A DNA stretch of 33,766 bases from Escherichia phage PCM001, in the sequence record OR529306. One strand, given 5' to 3'. The notes beneath the pieces were generated by a model. The model was not told where the DNA came from and made no database searches. It was given only the letters and a program-made list of their open reading frames with translations. Shown here piece by piece: positions 676 to 24,126 of the stretch (positions are counted from its first letter, which is position 1; the number at the start of each line of letters is the position of its first letter). Position numbers and translations under genes: made by a program.

Positions 676-3600
676 ATGGCTACATTAAAACAGATACAAT
701 TTAAAAGAAGCAAAGTGGCAGGAGTTAATCCTACTGCAGCTCAATTAGCCGAAGGCGAATTAGCGATAAACTTAAAAGATCGAACTCTTTTTACTAAAGA
801 TGACCTCGGTAATATTATTAGCCTAGGCTTTGCTAAGGGCGGGGATATTAACGGTAATGTAACTCAAAATGGTGATTATTTACAAAACGGCACATATAAT
901 CTTAATGGAACCCAGTTTGTTTATGCAGGAAAGTATATTGAATTCTTGCCAAAAACTGCTGGAAATGGCGCTTGGGCTAACCAACATCAGAATAAAGCCC
1001 CTATCTTTACAGATTTGAGTTCAACTACTTCAACTTCTGAATACCACCCTTTGATTAAGCAACGTTATAAAGATGGTACTTTTTCAGTAGGTACATTAGT
1101 AAGCGAAGGCTCATTTAGAGTTCATTATATTGATTCTACAGCTCCAGACAATTCTAAACACTGGGTCTTTAACCGTAACGGTAATTTTATTGTAGATTCT
1201 GGTAGTATTGAGGTCCGCACAGGTAATATTTCTGCGTCAGGCAATATTAACTCCGCTAATGGTATAGTTTCTGCTCCACAAGTTAATACGAAAACCATTG
1301 TTTTAGACACAAAAGCATTTGGACAATATGATTCGCAATCATTAGTTCAATATGTTTATCCTGGAACAGGCGAAGAAAATGGTGTAAACTATCTTCGTAA
1401 AGTTCGCGCTAAATCAGGCGGAACTATTTACCATGAAATCGCTTCAGCTCAAACTGGTAAGAATGATGAAATTTCTTGGTGGACTGGAAATACACTTACT
1501 ACTAAATTAATGGGTCTTCGTAATGATGGCGCAATGGTATTACGTCGTTCACTTGCTATTGGCACAATTACCACCGATGAAAATACTAACAACTATGGCT
1601 CTCCTACTCCAATGGGAGAAAGATATATTGCTTTAGGTGATGCTGCCACTGGTTTAAAATATATTAAGCAAGGCGTTTATGATTTAGTAGGTAATTGGAA
1701 TTCTGTTGCTTCTATTACTCCTGATAGTTTCCGTAGTACTCGTAAAGCATTATTTGGACGCTCAGAAGACCAAGGCGGAACCTGGACAATGCCTGGAACC
1801 AACGCTGCATTTTTATCAGCTCAAACTCAGGCTGATGGGAATACAGCTGGTGACGGTCAGACACATATTGGTTATAACTCTGCCGGTAAAATGAGTCATT
1901 ATTTCCGCGGTAAAGGAAAAACTAATATTAATACTCAGGAAGGTGTAGAAGTTAACCCTGGTATATTGAAGTTAATCACCGGTGCTAACAGTATTAGCTT
2001 TAACGCTGCAACAGGTAATATTGATTCTACATTAGCCTTTCGTCTTAATAAAGGCATAATTATTGATGGACCTGATAATCAGGGATTCCAATTTAATGCT
2101 CCGACGGCTGTAGATGGTACTAGAAGTATATACTGGAATAGTGGCACACGCCCAGGACAAAACAAAAGTCCTGTTACGGTTAAGGCATGGGGAAGTGCGT
2201 ACAGCACAGGAGATAAATCTCGTGAAACTGTATTTGAAGTTGGCGACGGCCAAGGTTATTATTTTTATGCGCAGCGTGTAGCTCCCGCTTCAGGATCTAC
2301 TGTCGGACCAATTCAATTTAGAATTGCTGGTGGTTTATTAACTTCAGGTAGTATTGTTGCTTCTGGTTCTATTACAACTGAATCTTCTTTAAATGTTAAT
2401 AATGGATTATCTGTAAACGGACAAGCTAAATTCGGTGGAACTGCTGATGCGTTAAGAATTTGGGATGCCGAATACGGTGCTATTTTCCGTCGTTCAGAAG
2501 CATCATTACATATTATCCCAACTCCTAAAGATGCTGGTGAAAGTGGTGGAATAAGTAATCTCCGTCCACTAAGTATTAGTCTTAATAATGGTATGGTTCA
2601 AATGCGCCATTCTGTTACGTTAGGTGATGATGGTGCTGGCGGTAATATGGTGACCGTTGATAATGATAATAAACTTGTTGTTATAACTAGCCATAGTCGC
2701 ATTTCTCCTAATTACCGTATGCAGTTAGGTCAGTCGGCATACATTGATGCAGAATGTACTGATGCTGCACGACCTGCTGGAGCCGGTTCTTTTGCTTCAC
2801 AAAATAATGAAAACGTTCGTGCTCCGTTCTATATGAATATTGATAGAACAGATACAAGCACTTATGTTCCTATTGTGAAACAAAGATACGTTCAAAATAA
2901 TAGTTGCTATTCTATTGGTACTTTAATTAATGGTGGTAACTTTAGAGTTCATTATCACGAAGGTGGTGACGGCGTTTCTACTGGTGCTGTTATAAAGGAT
3001 CTTGGATGGGAATTTAATAAAAACGGTGATTTTTATTCTCCTGGTAAATTAGGCGCTGGTAATGTTCGTATTGGTACTGATGGTAATATCACTGGCGGTT
3101 CTGGTAATTTTGCTAACTTGAATACCACAATAAATAACCTTAAGACGGATATTGTCTCAAGTTATCCAATTGGTGCTCCGATTCCTTGGCCTACTGATAC
3201 ACCTCCTGAAGGTTACGCCATAATGGAAGGTCAAACATTTGATGCTGAGTTGTATCCTAAGTTAGCTGCTGTGTATCCTTCCGGCTCTCTGCCTGATATG
3301 CGTGGTCAAACTATCAAGGGTAAACCATCTGGGCGTGCTGTATTAAGTACAGAAGCAGACGGTGTTAAGTCACATAGCCATAGTGCAAGTGCATCAAGCA
3401 CAGATTTGGGTACTAAAAATACGTCAAGTTTTGATTATGGTAGCAAAACGACTTCAAGCTTTGATTATGGTACTAAGACCAGTAATACCACTGGCAACCA
3501 TAGCCATACAGTGAGTGGTAATACTAGTTCCGCTGGTGCTCACCAACACGCGCGTTCAGGCCCTCAGATACAAGCCGGCATACCCAATAGCATATTCTAT

Positions 3601-3918
3601 GACGGATATAATAGTGTAGGTGCAAACGCCAACGCTAAATTCACTGGAACCGTGAATGGTGCTACTGCAGGGTCGAATATAGCCAAAACTTCTTCAGATG
3701 GTGCCCACACTCATAGTTGGTCAGGAACTACTAGCGCTACGGGTAACCATGCTCATACTGTGGGTATTGGTGCTCATACGCATACTGTGGGTATTGGTGC
3801 TCATTCTCATACTGTTGCAATTGGTTCCCATGGACATACAATAACTGTAAATGCCACAGGAAATACAGAAAACACGGTTAAAAACGTTGCTTTTAACTAT
3901 ATCGTTCGTTTAGCATAA
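676..3918 (+). CDS. 37: Long tail fiber distal subunit gp37 (receptor-recognising tip), 1080 aa
   Basis: N-term [20 protein letters not shown] as in T4 gp37; SD AAGAGGA upstream; C-terminal region carries repeated G-x-H-x-H motifs (GNHSHT, GAHQHA, GAHTHS, GNHAHT, GAHTHT, GAHSHT, GSHGHT) typical of the T4 gp37 metal-binding tip. Confidence 0.9.
3409..3480 (+). repeat. 30-bp tandem repeat (about 2.4 copies) inside gp37 coding sequence
   Basis: units ggtactaaaaatacgtcaagttttgattat and ggtagcaaaacgacttcaagctttgattat, encoding [10 protein letters not shown] / [10 protein letters not shown]. Confidence 0.8.
3754..3834 (+). repeat. 27-bp tandem repeat (about 3 copies) encoding His-x-His modules of gp37 tip
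   Basis: catactgtgggtattggtgctcatacg at 3754-3780 repeated at 3781-3807 with 3' divergence, third degenerate copy follows; encodes HTVGIGAHT. Confidence 0.8.
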
Positions 3919-3922
3919 GGAG

Positions 3923-3946
3923 AAGGGACTTCTGTCCCTTTTTATA
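3923..3946 (+). terminator. Putative intrinsic terminator/attenuator after gene 37
   Basis: hairpin aagggac-ttct-gtccctt followed by TTTTTAT, beginning 5 nt after gp37 stop; runs directly into the gene 38 ATG so likely only partial termination. Confidence 0.45.
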
Positions 3947-3948
3947 AT

Positions 3949-4500
3949 ATGAAACTCTATCACTATTATTTTGACACTAAAGAATTTTACAAAGAAGAAA
4001 ATTATAAACCATTAAAAGGCGTAGGATTTCCGGCTCACTCGACATCTAAAAAACCTTTAGACCCTAAAGAAGGCTATGCTGTTATATTTGACGAACGCGA
4101 GCAAGAATGGGTATATGTTGAAGACCATCGTGGAAAAACAGTATGGACTTATGATAAGCAAAAAATTGTTATTGACACTCCAGGTGCTCTTCAAAATGTT
4201 ACTACAGAAGAACCCGGTGAATTTGACATTTGGACCGGCGACGGGTGGAAGGAAGATGAAGCATATAAACGCGTAGTTCAACGTGATAAGAAAATTCATG
4301 AACTCTATAAATTATTCAGTGTTTTAAGTTCTCTTATTGACGCAGAGGTTGCTAATAGAGAAGAAAAACGAAAATTTAAAGAGCTCAAAAAATTCTTTGC
4401 CCTTTTAGAAAAACATGAACATCTTGGTGGTGAATTCCCTAAATTCCCTGACCTTGAAAACAAATCTATTATCAAAGCGATTATAAATATCTTTAAGTAA
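3949..4500 (+). CDS. 38: Tail fiber assembly protein gp38 (T4-type chaperone), 183 aa
   Basis: MKLYHYYFDTKEFYKEENYKP and HLGGEFP match recalled T4 gp38; same length as T4 gp38 (183 aa). Confidence 0.85.
   Translation: MKLYHYYFDTKEFYKEENYKPLKGVGFPAHSTSKKPLDPKEGYAVIFDEREQEWVYVEDHRGKTVWTYDKQKIVIDTPGALQNVTTEEPGEFDIWTGDGWKEDEAYKRVVQRDKKIHELYKLFSVLSSLIDAEVANREEKRKFKELKKFFALLEKHEHLGGEFPKFPDLENKSIIKAIINIFK
4482..4489 (+). promoter_or_regulatory. T4-type late promoter motif TATAAATA upstream of holin gene t
   Basis: exact TATAAATA 21 nt upstream of the t start codon, inside the 3' end of gene 38; followed by SD AAGGAGG. Confidence 0.55.
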
Positions 4501-19339: not shown

Positions 19340-19750
19340 TTATTCCTTAAAATGTGCTTTCAACATTTGATAAAAAGACCATGCCTGGTCGTTATTTTCG
19401 ATAGTAATCGTCATCACCGGAAATTCAGACAATTCATCGAGTTCGCCAGAATCTTGCTCTTCAGACGCTTGATACGGATTTCCCACTTCATCAAAAAACT
19501 CTGCTTCATTCGTGGAGAGCCAGATAAAGTTTTCATCAAGGATATCACCGCCTGTTGCGTATCCAACCGTGCCAGTAGATGTTAAAATTTTAGTAGGACG
19601 ACTAAGATGGTCAACATCTAAAATTTTAAAAGGTTCCATGCCAAGACGTCGTGCATAAATCCCATTATCAGTGTGGTTTTTAATAAACTCTTCTTGGGCA
19701 CGTTTATCTTTAAATTGGTACCATGAGTTAACGCGGAATTTATTAGCCAT
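19340..19750 (-). CDS. Hypothetical protein (136 aa)
   Basis: track ORF 19340..19768 trimmed to ATG at 19750 ([10 protein letters not shown]), TAATG overlap with upstream ORF. Confidence 0.5.
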
Positions 19751-19977
19751 TAGTAAGTTTCCTTCCAATAAGTTGTACCATTTTCAGTGATTTCACGGAA
19801 GATGCCATAGATAGGCATTTCATCACCGAGTTTTTCGTAAACGTAAACCACTTCAGTGTAGCATAAAAATTCAGTCCAGTTTTTCTGTACAACAACTAAA
19901 TCAGGATTAAACAGAACATCTTCAAACTCATCGATGTTTGAATCAGTAGTTACGTTTTTAATGATTTGACGTTTCAT
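19750..19977 (-). CDS. Hypothetical protein (75 aa)
   Basis: track ORF 19750..20022 trimmed to ATG at 19977 with SD AGAGGAG; early promoter at about 19990-20030. Confidence 0.5.
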
Positions 19978-20034
19978 AATATTCTCCTCTTGTTTTGATA
20001 GGTCTATAGTATCATAGACCATAGTTGTTGTACA

Positions 20035-20559
20035 TCATTTTAGCAAAATAAAATCAACTTGTTCTGCCAATGAACGTCTGAACATTAATTGACAACTTCC
20101 AAGGATGAAATCAGGTGCTTCATAGACCGCGATGTAGTATCCTTTAGCTTTCAAGAGTTCAACATCCACCTGGTCATCAAACCATGCATAAACCGCGTCA
20201 ACACTTTCAAATCCAAAATAGAACCCTTTAGCCCAATCTTCACTCAATTCAAATGTGTGCTCAATTCTATAGTATCTTAAGATATTTTGTTCAAGGAGTT
20301 TGTCTTCATTTACTGTAGGACGATTAGGGACATTATAGTTGTCGCCATGATGGTAGAAGTTACCTGAGAGTATTCCATGCTTATCAAGGAACTCCCATGT
20401 TTCTTCAGAGTTGTCGGTGCCTGACCAACCGTATGGCGAGCGAGGTTCTTTATTCCAAGAGGTTTCCCAAATTCTGACGGCTTTACCGTCTTCGATAGCA
20501 ATTCCTGGTAATGATTCACGTTGAGTACAAAAACTACGTTCTATGCGGTAAACTAACAT
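20035..20559 (-). CDS. Hypothetical protein (174 aa)
   Basis: ORF track; SD AGAGGAG; early promoter at about 20570-20610. Confidence 0.5.
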   Translation of the reverse strand: MLVYRIERSFCTQRESLPGIAIEDGKAVRIWETSWNKEPRSPYGWSGTDNSEETWEFLDKHGILSGNFYHHGDNYNVPNRPTVNEDKLLEQNILRYYRIEHTFELSEDWAKGFYFGFESVDAVYAWFDDQVDVELLKAKGYYIAVYEAPDFILGSCQLMFRRSLAEQVDFILLK

Positions 20560-20618
20560 ATTATTCTCCTCTAGTTGATATGGTTATAATATCAAAACCA
20601 GAGGAGAAGTAAACAACT

Positions 20619-21038
20619 TTATGCGAAAGCAGCTGGGCTATATTTTTTAATTTGGAATTCAGGAACTACCATGAACTGTCCAGCGAAAACGATGTTATAA
20701 AGCTTGACACCATCTTCTACCCAACGGTCGCTAATAAATCCAGCGATTTGCTTAGTTTTCCACGGCGTTCCATCAGTTGCCGCAGCAATAGTGAATTCAT
20801 GGTCTTTTTCAACAGAAACTGATCTGCATAGTCCCCATTTGAACGCTTTTTCTTCTGGTTCAACGAATTGGCTTTTAACGTAGCCAATGTTACCATCGGC
20901 GTCACGAACTTTAACTTGGTTACGACCAAAAACCGGATCACTCACAGAAAGAACTTCAACCAACTTCCCGGCAACTTTAGAGCGAGAAGCAACAGATACA
21001 TATACGTAATCACCTGTAGAGAGATTTACAATATTCAT
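20619..21038 (-). CDS. Paralog family member A (139 aa), KOW-like N-terminal region plus conserved C-terminal module
   Basis: shares SVASRSKVAGKLVEV, FKWGLC and GFISDRWVEDGVKLYNIVFAGQFMVV with ORF 21048..21503; SD AAGGA. Confidence 0.55.
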   Translation of the reverse strand: MNIVNLSTGDYVYVSVASRSKVAGKLVEVLSVSDPVFGRNQVKVRDADGNIGYVKSQFVEPEEKAFKWGLCRSVSVEKDHEFTIAAATDGTPWKTKQIAGFISDRWVEDGVKLYNIVFAGQFMVVPEFQIKKYSPAAFA

Positions 21039-21047
21039 AATAATTCC

Positions 21048-21503
21048 TTAAGCTTTACGAGGAGACACATAGCGAGTGATTTCAGATTCTTTAACAACTC
21101 GGAAGTCACCTAAGAATACGATATTGTATAACTTTTCACCATCTTCAACCCATTGGTCACTAATGAAGCCACACATGGTATCAGTTGTGCTTGGATATCC
21201 GTATTCGTCGATGTAATCAAATTCTTTATCGGTCTGGAATTCAACGCCTTTGCAAAGGGCCCATTTGAACTGTACATTAGGTTCAGTAGAAGCAAAATGA
21301 GCACTCACACGAGTTTCCAGGAATTTAGGACTTACGTAAGCGTACTGAGTATCCTGACGTCCAAAACTAGGAATGATTCGAACTTTAACTTCTTTAATAC
21401 GTCCCATGCCATTTGTGCGAAGTCCGACAACTTCAACCAGACGACCTGCGGCTTTAGACCGGGATGCAGTTGATACACGCTTAATTTCACCAATAGTAAT
21501 CAT
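21048..21503 (-). CDS. Paralog family member B (151 aa)
   Basis: track ORF 21048..21566 trimmed to ATG at 21503 (MITIGEIKRV); STASRSKAAGRLVEV, FKWALC, GFISDQWVEDGEKLYNIVFLGDFRVV. Confidence 0.55.
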   Translation of the reverse strand: MITIGEIKRVSTASRSKAAGRLVEVVGLRTNGMGRIKEVKVRIIPSFGRQDTQYAYVSPKFLETRVSAHFASTEPNVQFKWALCKGVEFQTDKEFDYIDEYGYPSTTDTMCGFISDQWVEDGEKLYNIVFLGDFRVVKESEITRYVSPRKA

Positions 21504-21533
21504 AATTTTTCTCTCTTTGTTTAAGTTGAATTC

Positions 21534-21563
21534 ATTATACTCCATCCATCCTTGGATGTACAA
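21534..21563 (-). promoter_or_regulatory. Early promoter for paralog B
   Basis: - strand TTGTACA, 17 bp, TATAAT; about 45 bp region similar to the promoter at 22091..22120. Confidence 0.45.
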
Positions 21564-21565
21564 CA

Positions 21566-22060
21566 TTAATTTAGAATATTAACTACTGCACTACGTGGAA
21601 CCACACTAAAATCACCGGCATGAACAACGTTCAGAAGTTCAACCCCATCTTCAATCCACTGATCAGTTACCCATCCATTTACTGAACCAGCGAATGGGCG
21701 TCGAATTGAAACATATTTACACAATAAATCAGTAGGCTCAATAGGCTTAATCAGAGTACCGTACATACAAGCGATATCCATATCAAAGTGGAGACCATCT
21801 TTAACAGGTGCTTCTTCAATCAACAGTTCAAAGTCAGTGCTTGGAATGGCGGTAGTAGAAATTGTACCGTATGAATTTTTAATTTCTAAGAATAACCAAG
21901 GGCCTTCAGCCTGTTTGATGAAGTTAACAATAGTGAAACTACTACCTTGAGTGGCACCTAAAATTTCACAAAACTTTTCATAAGCTCGCACTGAAGCACC
22001 ATACCAGTTGATTTGTTTTTCGTCTTTCAGGATGTAAGTAGCCGTAGTATTGATATTCAT
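21566..22060 (-). CDS. Paralog family member C (164 aa), different N-terminal domain, same C-terminal module
   Basis: track ORF 21566..22102 (TTG start) trimmed to ATG at 22060; C-term GWVTDQWIEDGVELLNVVHAGDFSVVP aligns with A and B. Confidence 0.5.
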   Translation of the reverse strand: MNINTTATYILKDEKQINWYGASVRAYEKFCEILGATQGSSFTIVNFIKQAEGPWLFLEIKNSYGTISTTAIPSTDFELLIEEAPVKDGLHFDMDIACMYGTLIKPIEPTDLLCKYVSIRRPFAGSVNGWVTDQWIEDGVELLNVVHAGDFSVVPRSAVVNILN

Positions 22061-22090
22061 AATGGTTTCCCGTTTGGTTAAGATAGAAAG

Positions 22091-22120
22091 ATTATACTCC
22101 AACCATCCTTGGTTGTAAAC
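22091..22120 (-). promoter_or_regulatory. Early promoter for paralog C
   Basis: - strand GTTTACA, 17 bp, TATAAT. Confidence 0.5.
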
Positions 22121-22125
22121 TGGTT

Positions 22126-22803
22126 TTATCGCTGTTTTACACTTAACGGGTCAGGATTCTCAGGGACATCTTCAAGGCCAAGCGCATAACGCTGAGCATA
22201 TTTTAACATCAAAATATCTTTAGCACAATCATGAATACTATCATGGGCAACGAATCCTTTTAGCGTACCCATAGGTAATGGACATATACTTAATCCTCGT
22301 GTCAACGAGTAAGCTTCGATTGCCGTACGAATATCGCGTTGGGCCCAGAATTTAACCGGTTCTAATTTATCAGTATCAATCTCTGGTTCAAGAACACCTT
22401 CATCACGATAGAGGTCACGAATCAAATCGACCAAGATCGGGAAGTCAAAGCTCATACCACGGCACCACATCTGTGATTTCCATTGGTCAACTTTATTAGC
22501 TCGGCAATAGTCTAAAAAGATTTTAATGCCTTCAAGCGTAGTGACATCGTCTTCAGACGGAGCCAAGTTTTTACGCGCTTCAGCCGATTGTTCTTTCCAC
22601 CATTTCATAGTGGATTTAGCGAAAACTCGCTTCCCTTTCTGAGAAGCTAAATTAAATTTAATTCGCTTACCTCGTTGAACAAGTTCTTCAAATGATTCAA
22701 CAACTTCAGGGTCGGAATTATATGCAATAACCGCAAGGTCAATAACAGCCGCTTTTGATGTATTGCCGAATGTTTCAAAATCTATAATAACATCAGTGCT
22801 CAT
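22126..22803 (-). CDS. dexA: Exonuclease A (DnaQ-like 3'-5' exonuclease), 225 aa
   Basis: IIDFETFG ... MSFDFPILVDLIRD ... GFVAHDSIHDCAKDILMLKYA match recalled T4 DexA. Confidence 0.85.
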   Translation of the reverse strand: MSTDVIIDFETFGNTSKAAVIDLAVIAYNSDPEVVESFEELVQRGKRIKFNLASQKGKRVFAKSTMKWWKEQSAEARKNLAPSEDDVTTLEGIKIFLDYCRANKVDQWKSQMWCRGMSFDFPILVDLIRDLYRDEGVLEPEIDTDKLEPVKFWAQRDIRTAIEAYSLTRGLSICPLPMGTLKGFVAHDSIHDCAKDILMLKYAQRYALGLEDVPENPDPLSVKQR

Positions 22804-22812
22804 AATTTTCTC

Positions 22813-24126
22813 TCAAATAAAATGGACGTCAAACCGCCCACGAGTTGTGCCAACATACAATAACTGTTTAGCTAATTCTGAATCGGCATAATGGATACAC
22901 GGTGTATAAACAAAGGCCGTGTCAACAGACATACCCTGGGCCTTATGGAAGGTTGATACTGGTAGTGCCTTCACCTTAGTGAACATACGTTTAGCATCCC
23001 AGAATTCGCTCCATGGAGCTTTACCACCTTTATTCCAGAATTTGTATGTTTCTGCGGTCTTAGCCAAAAACAAATTGAATTTATAAAGCTCTTCTTCAGA
23101 AGAAATAACCTTTATATCTTCGCGGATGTATTCTTCATCATCCCCATATGTTTCTACTGTAAGATTCCAGTATCGTATCATATATTCGCCTGAAACACCA
23201 CGTGCTTTAACGAATGTAGACGTTTCTACAGCATCTCGAATACGAACGAATTGGCCGTTATTGAAAAGCATTTCGGTCATATTTTTACCATCTAACTTAT
23301 ATGTCTTGGTAAACGGCTCTTGTAGAACAATGACTTCATCTTTAATAAATGGCTTTTCTGTTTCGAGAAGTTTTCGGCGAATAATTGAATTTAACTTGTC
23401 TACTGACTTATTTGTGAATGCCATCATTCGATTTTCGAAAAGGTCTTCAGGAGTTTTAACGACGTTAAAATAATTCATCATATACGATTTAAGGTCTGTA
23501 TATCCGTGAACACCGTGCCCATCAACTACTTTATCGTAAATCCATTTGCCATTACGAATATCAGTCGCAACATCAATAATTGGTGCATTGCTACGTTTAA
23601 CTTCTGTAAGGTTGCATTGCACGAAGTCTTTGTGAGTGAAGAAAGGACTTAGATACGCGGTTGATTCGCCTGGGTCTACAGGACGAATCTGACATCGGTC
23701 GCCGATTCCAATTACTGTACACCATTTAGGGATACTAGCTAACATTATTTTAAACAGAGAACGGTCGCACATTGACGCTTCATCAAATAACAGTACACGG
23801 CACAAGGCTAAGTCGGGAACCTTTTTCTGTTCAAACAATACGTTTTCTTCGTATGTAGTTGGGTTGATTTTAAGAATGCTATGAATAGTCGATGCTTCTT
23901 GACCTGCGAGTTTGCTTAGAACCTTTTTAGCAGCATGTGTAGGGGCTGCTAAAATAATACCTGATTCTCCAGAAGAAATAAGGGCTTCAACGATGAATCT
24001 AGTAAGGGTTGTTTTACCTGTACCAGCAGGCCCATTAATAGTTACGTGATGTTTCTTTTCTTTAATAGCGTTCATAACAACGTTGAAGGCATTTTTCTGG
24101 CCTTCAGTCAAATCATCAAATGTCAT
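22813..24126 (-). CDS. dda: Dda DNA helicase (SF1), 437 aa
   Basis: MTFDDLTEGQKNAFNVVMNAIKEKKHHVTINGPAGTGKTT near-identical to recalled T4 Dda; Walker A present. Confidence 0.9.
   Translation of the reverse strand: MTFDDLTEGQKNAFNVVMNAIKEKKHHVTINGPAGTGKTTLTRFIVEALISSGESGIILAAPTHAAKKVLSKLAGQEASTIHSILKINPTTYEENVLFEQKKVPDLALCRVLLFDEASMCDRSLFKIMLASIPKWCTVIGIGDRCQIRPVDPGESTAYLSPFFTHKDFVQCNLTEVKRSNAPIIDVATDIRNGKWIYDKVVDGHGVHGYTDLKSYMMNYFNVVKTPEDLFENRMMAFTNKSVDKLNSIIRRKLLETEKPFIKDEVIVLQEPFTKTYKLDGKNMTEMLFNNGQFVRIRDAVETSTFVKARGVSGEYMIRYWNLTVETYGDDEEYIREDIKVISSEEELYKFNLFLAKTAETYKFWNKGGKAPWSEFWDAKRMFTKVKALPVSTFHKAQGMSVDTAFVYTPCIHYADSELAKQLLYVGTTRGRFDVHFI

What the first reader, a model, noticed from the sequence alone, without database searches (positions are those of the whole stretch)
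20619..22120. Tandem triplet of paralogous early genes sharing a conserved C-terminal module
ORFs 20619..21038, 21048..21503 and 21566..22060 all end in a module (F/W)(I/V)(S/T)D(R/Q)W(V/I)EDG.(K/E)L(Y/L)N(I/V)V..G.F.VV. The first two also share an N-terminal KOW-like block (S.ASRSK.AG.LVEV, FKW.LC); the third has an unrelated N-terminal domain. The promoter-leader regions of B and C are themselves duplicated. This looks like duplication plus domain shuffling directly upstream of dexA, where T4 has motB-region genes.
Basis: seen in the sequence. Interest (0 to 1): 0.55.

Follow-up and report, generated by a model that had tools for sequence, protein, structure and literature searches.

The report
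MotB-family early gene trio
These three neighbouring genes of an RB69-like T-even phage are its motB.1, motB and second motB genes. They are real paralogs that share a C-terminal small beta-barrel, but the family and this three-gene layout were already published in 2021, so the finding is correct and ordinary.

Summary
ORFs C (21566-22060), B (21048-21503) and A (20619-21038), all on the minus strand, pass Pfam's cut-off for motB (PF17613). A and B are full-length paralogs (43% identical). C shares only the C-terminal domain (CTD), and its N-terminal domain shows no detectable homology to theirs. A 64-nt promoter-leader repeat precedes B and C.

The window is a Mosigvirus. B matches T4 MotB best (47%) and C matches T4 MotB.1 (37%). 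A is an extra MotB copy, co-transcribed with B. Patterson-West et al. 2021 already reported the shared MotB/MotB.1 CTD, the different N-termini, a probable duplication, and RB69 carrying two motB plus one motB.1. Novelty: already known.

- The CTD occurs with at least five N-terminal architectures, and the family is tiny.
- Natural recombinants join the B and A types at three conserved motifs.
- All three genes are under purifying selection.
- The 119-aa T4 reference MotB.1 comes from an extra G found only in AF158101/NC_000866. Thirteen other near-identical (T4-type) records lack that base, which gives 143 aa.

The mechanism (nonspecific DNA binding that remodels H-NS-DNA complexes) is inferred from T4 MotB.

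The parts
21566..22060 (-). Gene C, 164 aa: full-length MotB.1-type protein. It has an LSm-like N-terminal barrel (about residues 1-84), a disordered linker carrying the DMDIACMYGTLIKP motif, and the MotB-family C-terminal barrel (about residues 105-164).
   Evidence: PHROG 2333 at 6.4e-81 over the full length. Pfam motB 37 bits on residues 88-159. 37% identity to T4 MotB.1. AF2 mean pLDDT 79.8 with two beta domains.
21569..21748 (-). C-terminal shared module of C (residues 105-164): PTDLLCK..GWVTDQWIEDGVELLNVVHAGDFSVVPRS.
   Evidence: Alignment A4. AF2 strands 116-119, 127-137, 140-147, 150-155, a 3-10 turn, then 159-163.
21048..21503 (-). Gene B, 151 aa: closest T4 match is MotB. It has a basic KOW-like N-terminal barrel (residues 1-62, net charge +8), a disordered linker (about 63-76), and the C-terminal barrel (residues 77-151, net charge -5).
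   Evidence: Pfam motB 126.6 bits covering profile positions 2-157 of 162. 47% identity to T4 MotB. AF2 mean pLDDT 84.4, CTD blocks mostly above 90. Charges.
21051..21275 (-). C-terminal shared module of B (residues 77-151). It carries a beta-hairpin extension of about 19 aa that is absent from C.
20619..21038 (-). Gene A, 139 aa: second, shorter MotB paralog. It starts 9 nt after the stop of B with its own AAGGAA Shine-Dalgarno and has no promoter-like site of its own, so it is presumably co-transcribed with B.
   Evidence: Pfam motB 76 bits. 43% identity to B and 38% to T4 MotB. At least 80% identical copies in 207 phage records. dN/dS 0.05-0.15. Upstream sequence.
20622..20846 (-). C-terminal shared module of A (residues 65-139).
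22061..22125 (-). Promoter-leader of C: sigma-70/T4-early-like site TTTACA-17-TATAAT (22119 to 22091), then a leader of about 30 nt up to the ATG.
   Evidence: 11 of 12 consensus matches, the best in the region. One copy of the 64-nt repeat.
21504..21565 (-). Promoter-leader of B: TGTACA-17-TATAAT (21562 to 21534). It is the second copy of the repeat.
   Evidence: 10 of 12 consensus matches. 45/61 identical to the C leader.

Best explanation
The triplet is the motB.1 - motB - second-motB cluster of an RB69-like (Mosigvirus) T-even phage. It encodes small early proteins, each built from two small beta-barrels joined by a flexible linker.

Shown here:
- All three carry one homologous C-terminal barrel with an invariant D.W.E.G..L.N.V..G...V core.
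- A and B add a basic KOW-like N-terminal barrel. C adds an unrelated LSm-like barrel.
- B and C each have their own early-type promoter-like site inside a duplicated 64-nt cassette. A has none and follows B directly.
- All three are under purifying selection.
- The locus evolves by tandem duplication, unequal crossing-over at the conserved motifs and N-domain replacement.

Inferred from T4 MotB experiments (PMC6070864, PMC7827196): B, and probably A, are abundant sequence-nonspecific DNA-binding proteins. They coat host and phage DNA soon after infection, alter how H-NS/StpA sit on DNA, derepress part of the H-NS regulon and modestly raise burst size.

My own inference from charge and conservation: DNA binding sits mainly in the basic KOW-like barrel. 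The shared barrel, acidic in B and C but not in A or T4 MotB, would then be a common interaction or oligomerisation module. If so, the wholly acidic C (pI 4.65) would attach a different, possibly RNA-facing, barrel to the same partner rather than bind DNA itself.

The confidence of 0.85 applies to the identity and the evolutionary reading. The DNA/H-NS mechanism for B and A I put at about 0.6, and the division of labour between the domains at about 0.35.
For: Identity:
- Pfam motB above cut-off for all three. PHROG MotB-like and phrog_2333.
- 96-97% DNA identity to Mosigvirus genomes annotated as MotB-like.
- RB69 has the same gene order and names. Best T4 matches.

Structure:
- AF2 models have two beta domains and a linker with pLDDT below 50.
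- Distant family members carry a true Pfam KOW motif plus the motB CTD.

Regulation:
- The two best promoter-like sites in the region precede C and B. The cassette repeat is shown.

Evolution:
- A branches next to the B clade on a long branch.
- B/A hybrids have junctions at SRSK (Kelasse), FKW.LC (P0155) and GFISDQWVEDG (P0149). A T4-type N-domain carries an A-type CTD in P0223.
- The CTD occurs in at least five architectures.
- dN/dS is 0.05-0.18.

Function:
- T4 MotB binds DNA nonspecifically, co-purifies with H-NS/StpA, is toxic and doubles burst size (PMC6070864 abstract; PMC7827196 sections 3.1-3.2 and discussion).
- Charges: B N-domain +8, B CTD -5, C acidic throughout.
Against: - No experiment exists for any Mosigvirus copy, for the A-type protein or for a full-length MotB.1.
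- In T4, a motB knockdown barely changes the phage transcriptome, and deleting motB.1 has no phenotype under laboratory conditions (PMC6070864; PMC12152347 section 2.2).
- Which domain binds DNA is untested. The authors assign the CTD to a DNA-binding OB-fold. The CTD is near neutral or slightly basic in T4 MotB (+1) and in A (+1), so the charge argument is not uniform.
- Promoter calls are consensus matches only.
Confidence: 0.85

Rival explanations
1. The shared C-terminal module is the DNA-binding domain, a cold-shock-like OB-fold as proposed by Patterson-West et al. 2021. All three proteins, C included, would then be DNA binders that differ only in an accessory N-terminal domain.
For: HHpred assignment of the MotB CTD to SCOPe b.40.4.5 (PMC7827196 section 3.1). 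The CTD is the most conserved part of the family. T4 MotB's CTD is not acidic (+1).
Against: - The AF2 models place the only helical turn between strands 4 and 5, which is SH3-like, rather than between strands 3 and 4 as in an OB-fold.
- The invariant residues are acidic or aromatic (D, W, E, G), not basic.
- C is acidic overall, pI 4.65.
Confidence: 0.25
2. A is a redundant, decaying duplicate of B with no function of its own.
For: A is shorter, lacks its own promoter, sits on a long branch, and is lost or fused with B in some phages.
Against: - It is intact in 207 phage records at 80-99% identity.
- dN/dS is 0.05-0.15, including against the divergent GiZh copy with dS 0.56.
- All invariant family positions are kept.
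- A-type CTDs have been recruited into T4-type MotB proteins (P0223).
Confidence: 0.1
3. The B/C upstream similarity is only the shared T4 early-promoter consensus, or a mobile promoter-stem-loop (PeSL) cassette, and not a trace of gene duplication.
For: T4-type phages carry conserved promoter cassettes that mediate modular shuffling (PMC2839356, PMC4122927). The motB.2 promoter-leader cassette travels with its gene between genera (47/58 identical).
Against: - The similarity covers the spacer and the whole leader down to the ATG (45/61). The third early-type promoter nearby shares only the hexamers.
- The 22-mer occurs nowhere else in 33.8 kb.
- Neither copy folds better than shuffled sequence (z 0.2 and 0.0), so the stem-loop that defines a PeSL is missing.
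Confidence: 0.15
4. The C-terminal resemblance is chance or compositional.
Against: The E-values and curated-threshold hits. A profile of the module finds only about 28 small MotB-family-like proteins among 1.84 billion cluster representatives.
Confidence: 0.01

Closest known systems
Bacteriophage T4 MotB (Pfam PF17613; NP_049626)
   Same: B is 47% and A 38% identical over the full length. They share the two-domain layout, the same position next to dexA and cef, and an early-type promoter. B's leader resembles that of T4 motB.
   Different: There are two copies in tandem here instead of one. A lacks about 12 N-domain residues and most of the linker. There are no functional data for either copy.
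T4 MotB.1 (PHROG 2333), the 'Category 2' MotB relatives of Patterson-West et al. 2021 and the LSm-like family of Kim et al. 2025
   Same: C is 37% identical to T4 MotB.1. It has the same N-terminal domain type, the same CTD, and lies next to motB.
   Different: C is full length (164 aa), with an extra DMDIACMYGTLIKP linker segment. The reference T4 protein (119 aa) stops inside the CTD. Here C has its own promoter and directly follows dexA, whereas T4 motB.1 follows motB.2 with no promoter.
RB69 locus RB69p010-p013 (motB-like, motB, 29-aa ORF, motB.1)
   Same: Same genus, same gene order and near-identical proteins. It is explicitly described as two motB plus one motB.1 in PMC7827196 section 3.2.
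   Different: In the RB69 reference, two single-base insertions split motB.1 into 132-aa and 29-aa ORFs. The window's gene is intact.
Tandem SH3-like barrel readers: 53BP1 tandem Tudor, Spt5 KOW6-KOW7, NusG/RfaH KOW
   Same: Best structural matches to both models, with 50-60 residues superposed at 1.4-2.2 A.

Membership tests
MotB family (Pfam PF17613) | Whole-protein score above Pfam's gathering threshold (25 bits) | tested here: met
   A 76, B 126.6, C 37 bits.
MotB family (Pfam PF17613) | Full two-domain architecture: KOW-like N-terminal domain plus CTD | tested here: met
   Met for B (profile positions 2-157 of 162) and for A (two matched stretches, plus 43% full-length identity to B). Not met for C, which matches profile positions 82-153 only.
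MotB family (Pfam PF17613) | Tight sequence-nonspecific DNA binding, co-purification with H-NS/StpA, toxicity on expression | not testable with these tools
   Known only for T4 MotB (PMC6070864, PMC7827196).
MotB.1 subfamily (PHROG 2333) | Full-length match including the N-terminal LSm-like domain | tested here: met
   C hits phrog_2333 at 6.4e-81 over residues 1-164. blastp to T4 MotB.1 gives 2e-22 from residue 3. The AF2 N-domain is beta-rich with one helix. The LSm-like label itself is taken from PMC12152347 and was not re-derived.
OB-fold, cold-shock DNA-binding domain (published assignment of the MotB CTD) | Five-strand barrel with the helix between strands 3 and 4, and OB-fold structural neighbours | tested here: not met
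KOW motif (Pfam PF00467) | Score above the gathering threshold in the N-terminal domain | tested here: inconclusive
Tudor / 'Royal' family | Aromatic cage that binds methylated Lys or Arg | not tested
   Only a fold resemblance was seen.
PeSL mobile promoter-stem-loop cassettes of T4-type phages | Conserved early promoter combined with a stable stem-loop | tested here: not met
   Promoter-like sites are present, but the B and C upstream regions fold no better than shuffles (z 0.22 and 0.01).

The most novel reading that the evidence does not exclude
The shared C-terminal module is not an OB-fold DNA binder. It would instead be a Tudor/SH3-like docking barrel with an invariant acidic-aromatic core. 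It would tether interchangeable nucleic-acid-binding N-terminal barrels (KOW-like or LSm-like, single or doubled) to one common partner: each other, or H-NS/StpA-DNA filaments. MotB, the second MotB and MotB.1 would then act as one hetero-oligomeric set. A corollary is that experiments on the 119-aa 'T4 MotB.1' used a protein lacking the last three strands of this barrel, so the function of MotB.1 has not yet been tested.
Probability: 0.2. Interest if true: 0.45.

Novelty: already known. Interest (0 to 1): 0.2.

Why it matters
MotB is one of the few T4 host-takeover proteins linked to the nucleoid protein H-NS, and its paralogs are uncharacterised. The finding itself adds nothing to Patterson-West et al. 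2021.

The follow-up gives practical corrections for people working on the family:
- The true T4 MotB.1 is most likely 143 aa, not 119 aa.
- The CTD is better described as an SH3/Tudor-like barrel than as an OB-fold.
- RB69-type phages offer an intact three-gene set, and natural hybrids mark the domain boundaries for construct design.

Tried and rejected
- Sequence searches of the PDB with B, with C and with a CTD profile found nothing usable.
- I tested whether the KOW-like and LSm-like N-domains are distant homologs, which would make C a whole-gene paralog. hhalign gave probability 0.3%, so this was rejected at the sequence level, although both are small beta-barrels.
- I suspected a compensatory hairpin in the promoter spacers (CAACC..GGTTG in C, CATCC..GGATG in B) and a PeSL-type cassette. 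RNA folding is no better than for shuffled sequence, so I dropped this.
- I first concluded that A is specific to Mosigvirus. This was rejected after finding the B-type plus A-type tandem in GiZh and a B/A fusion in Kelasse, both classified as Tequatrovirus.
- Long proteins (567-921 aa) in the exhaustive search match only about 20-25 profile positions, repeatedly. The three I checked carry other Pfam domains: P0242 a phage tail repeat, P0245 a phage tail-tip domain, P0247 Ig domains. I did not count any of these long proteins as family members.
Assigning the Tudor-like hits to the CTD rests on the same PDB chains appearing for both B and C.

Full report
**1. What is there**

The window is 96-97% identical over this region to many RB69-like coliphages. 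Phage NHEP10 was the top hit, and three records were confirmed as genus Mosigvirus: O157 typing phage 3, TU01 and RB69.

All genes here are on the minus strand. In the direction of transcription the order is:
- dda (22813-24126)
- dexA (22126-22803)
- C (21566-22060, 164 aa)
- B (21048-21503, 151 aa)
- A (20619-21038, 139 aa)
- orf174 (20035-20559)
- cef (most likely starting at 19977)

So the triplet lies downstream of dexA, not upstream.

**2. Checking the observation**

The similarity is significant by several independent measures:
- Pfam motB (PF17613, cut-off 25 bits) scores 76 bits for A, 126.6 for B and 37 for C. C matches only on residues 88-159.
- A and B fall in PHROG 1671 ('MotB-like') and C in PHROG 2333, with cross-hits between them of 4e-15 to 6e-8.
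- blastp gives A-B 43% identity over the full length (8e-28). A-C and B-C are similar only in the last 29-36 residues, about 1e-6 at a database size of 1e6.
- A profile-profile comparison of the A/B N-domain family with the C N-domain family finds nothing (probability 0.3%).

The promoter-leader duplication is also real:
- It is a 64-nt direct repeat at 75% identity. With one gap, 45 of 61 positions match, about 17 SD above shuffles.
- A 22-mer spanning the spacer and the -10 element occurs only at these two sites in the window.
- These two sites are also the best sigma-70/T4-early-like matches in the region, at 11/12 and 10/12.
- A starts 9 nt after the stop of B and has no promoter-like site of its own.

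**3. Identity**

Compared with T4, the best matches are:

| Window gene | T4 gene | Identity |
|---|---|---|
| B | MotB | 47% |
| A | MotB | 38% |
| C | MotB.1 | 37% |
| orf174 | MotB.2 | 34% |

(all). T4 has the order dexA, motB.2, motB.1, motB, cef. The window and RB69 have dexA, motB.1, motB, second motB, motB.2, cef.

**4. Prior knowledge**

Patterson-West et al. 2021 (PMC7827196, sections 3.1-3.2 and discussion) already report the following:
- MotB and MotB.1 share a conserved CTD and have different N-terminal domains.
- One gene probably arose by duplication of the other.
- Several architectural categories exist.
- RB69 has two motB copies, one motB.1 and a 29-aa peptide.

Kim et al. 2025 (PMC12152347, section 2.2) describe the MotB.1 N-domain as an LSm-like barrel related to GoF and Frd.2. 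The finding is therefore correct but already known.

**5. Structure**

AlphaFold2 with family alignments gave a mean pLDDT of 79.8 for C and 84.4 for B. Each model has two beta domains joined by a linker with pLDDT below 50.

In both models the shared CTD has five strands, with a single 3-10 turn between strands 4 and 5. That is the SH3-like order, not the OB order. MotB-type CTDs carry a beta-hairpin extension of about 19 residues that MotB.1-type CTDs lack.

- for B, KOW domains (Spt5, NusG, RfaH) and Tudor domains (53BP1, PHF19);
- for C, Tudor, PWWP and BAH domains.

I read this as two SH3-like barrels in tandem, which disagrees with the published OB-fold assignment for the CTD. The scores are moderate. 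Attributing the Tudor-like hits to the CTD is an inference, because the outputs do not report which domain was aligned.

**6. Family breadth and shuffling**

Among 225 relatives retrieved, plus the three window proteins (228 in all), every one carries the CTD. The N-terminal parts fall into at least five architectures:
- KOW-like domain;
- LSm-like domain;
- a 'mid' domain that is a remote homolog of the LSm-like domain (hhalign E 7e-5);
- another N-terminal domain plus the mid domain;
- two mid domains in tandem.

An exhaustive HMM search with a CTD-only profile against 1.84 billion cluster representatives found only 36 hits. About 28 of them are small MotB-family-like proteins. The most distant ones combine a bona fide Pfam KOW motif with the CTD, which suggests that KOW plus CTD is the ancestral form.

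Copy number varies between phages. tblastn with the C module finds three places in the Mosigvirus-like records listed, two in most Tequatrovirus-type records, and one in several Klebsiella phages and in T2.

A-type genes at 80% identity or more occur in 207 phage records. These include GiZh, which is classified as Tequatrovirus and has a B-type plus A-type tandem in the T4 gene order.

Natural recombinants mark the exchange points:

| Protein | Composition | Junction |
|---|---|---|
| Kelasse gp7 | B start joined to A | SRSK |
| P0155 | B N-domain + A CTD | FKW.LC |
| P0149 | B up to the junction, then A | GFISDQWVEDG |
| P0223 | T4 MotB N-domain + A-type CTD, in a T4-like context | FKWKL |

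. This is what unequal crossing-over between tandem paralogs and inter-phage recombination at conserved motifs would produce.

A, B and C are all under purifying selection, with dN/dS of 0.05-0.18. On a rough neighbour-joining tree, A sits next to the B clade on a long branch.

**7. Mechanism**

Nothing is measured for these particular proteins. From T4 MotB (PMC6070864, PMC7827196):
- it is an abundant early protein;
- it binds DNA tightly and without sequence specificity, both unmodified and glucosyl-hmC DNA;
- it up-regulates 75 host genes, about one third of them in the H-NS regulon;
- it is toxic when expressed alone and doubles burst size.

I infer the same for B, and probably for A.

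Domain charges:

| Protein | N-domain | CTD |
|---|---|---|
| B | +8 | -5 |
| T4 MotB | +5 | +1 |
| A | +2 | +1 |
| C | -4 | -3 (whole protein pI 4.65) |

The invariant CTD residues are D, W, E, G, L, N, V, G and V. I therefore favour DNA binding by the KOW-like barrel and a common interaction or oligomerisation role for the CTD. This is inference and could be wrong. The rival reading, a DNA-binding CTD, is kept at 0.25.

**8. By-products**

(a) The T4 reference motB.1 (119 aa) ends just after WVTDQWI because of one extra G (ATTGGAAGATGG instead of ATTGAAGATGG). The rest of the CTD follows in the next reading frame.
- Only AF158101.6 and its RefSeq copy NC_000866.4 carry this base.
- Thirteen other near-identical records lack one base over the same stretch, including T4T, RB55 and RB59. 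One resequenced T4, OZ209023.1, was read directly and has an intact 143-aa ORF.
- The 143-aa protein P0011 is recorded on 256 contigs.
- Kim et al. 2025 describe MotB.1 as 13.8 kDa, which is the size of the 119-aa form.

(b) In the RB69 reference, two single-base insertions split motB.1 into 132-aa and 29-aa ORFs. This explains the 'Category 3' peptide of the 2021 paper.

(c) orf174 (the motB.2 homolog) has an early-type promoter whose spacer pairs with the gene's own Shine-Dalgarno sequence (-22.3 kcal/mol, z -4.4). The cassette is conserved with T4 motB.2 (47/58 identical) even though the gene sits in a different position. The Shine-Dalgarno would be masked only in read-through transcripts.

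**9. Verdict**

The novelty is 'already known', and interest is low at 0.2. The corrections to the T4 and RB69 references and the fold re-assignment are modest but useful.

Noticed in passing
L003 (T4 NC_000866) 2700-3151, minus strand; compared with L005 (OZ209023.1) 1234-1665: The T4 reference motB.1 (119 aa) is truncated inside the shared C-terminal domain by a single extra G. That base is present only in AF158101/NC_000866. Thirteen other near-identical (T4-type) records lack it, which gives a 143-aa protein. Published MotB.1 work describes the 13.8-kDa (119-aa) form.
   Followed up: yes
L004 (RB69 NC_004928) 3877-4373, minus strand: The RB69 reference motB.1 is split into 132-aa and 29-aa ORFs (RB69p013 and RB69p012) by two single-base insertions relative to the window and to O157 typing phage 3. 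This explains the orphan 29-aa 'Category 3' peptide of Patterson-West 2021.
   Followed up: yes
window 20545-20625, minus strand (upstream of orf174, 20035-20559): The early-type promoter of the motB.2 homolog has a spacer (TTCTCCTCTGG) that pairs with the gene's own Shine-Dalgarno (CTAGAGGAGAA): -22.3 kcal/mol, z -4.4. Read-through transcripts would mask the ribosome-binding site, and transcripts from the gene's own promoter would not. The cassette is conserved with T4 motB.2 (47/58 identical) although the gene sits at a different place in the locus.
   Followed up: partly
window 20035-20559 compared with L003 3162-3662: Gene order differs between genera. The motB.2 homolog lies after the motB genes, next to cef, in the window and in RB69. 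In T4 it lies directly after dexA.
   Followed up: partly
L010 (Kelasse) 1959-2411; L006 1373-1894; L007 3001-3492; proteins P0149, P0155, P0223: Natural hybrid motB genes show crossovers at three conserved motifs (SRSK, FKW.LC, GFISDQWVEDG). One T4-type MotB carries an A-type C-terminal domain.
   Followed up: yes
protein P0243 (43 aa): A 43-aa ORF joins the first 16 or so residues of MotB.2 (MKIYRVESSFSILDYED) to the last 27 residues of MotB.1 (GVELLNVVHAGDFSVVPRSAVVAILN). It looks like a deletion between the two genes at an EDG microhomology.
   Followed up: no
window 19750-20022, minus strand: The mechanical ORF for cef (90 aa) probably starts at the internal ATG at 19977 (75 aa, preceded by GAGGAG), as annotated in RB69 and O157 typing phage 3. 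The sequence around this start is 90% identical over 20 nt to the orf174 start region (repeat D8).
   Followed up: no
window 21504-21566, minus strand: Several database records annotate B as 165-175 aa from an upstream ATG (MLYIQGWMEYNEF...). That extension runs through B's own promoter-like site and abuts C's stop codon. The 151-aa start (MITIGEIK) matches T4 MotB.
   Followed up: partly
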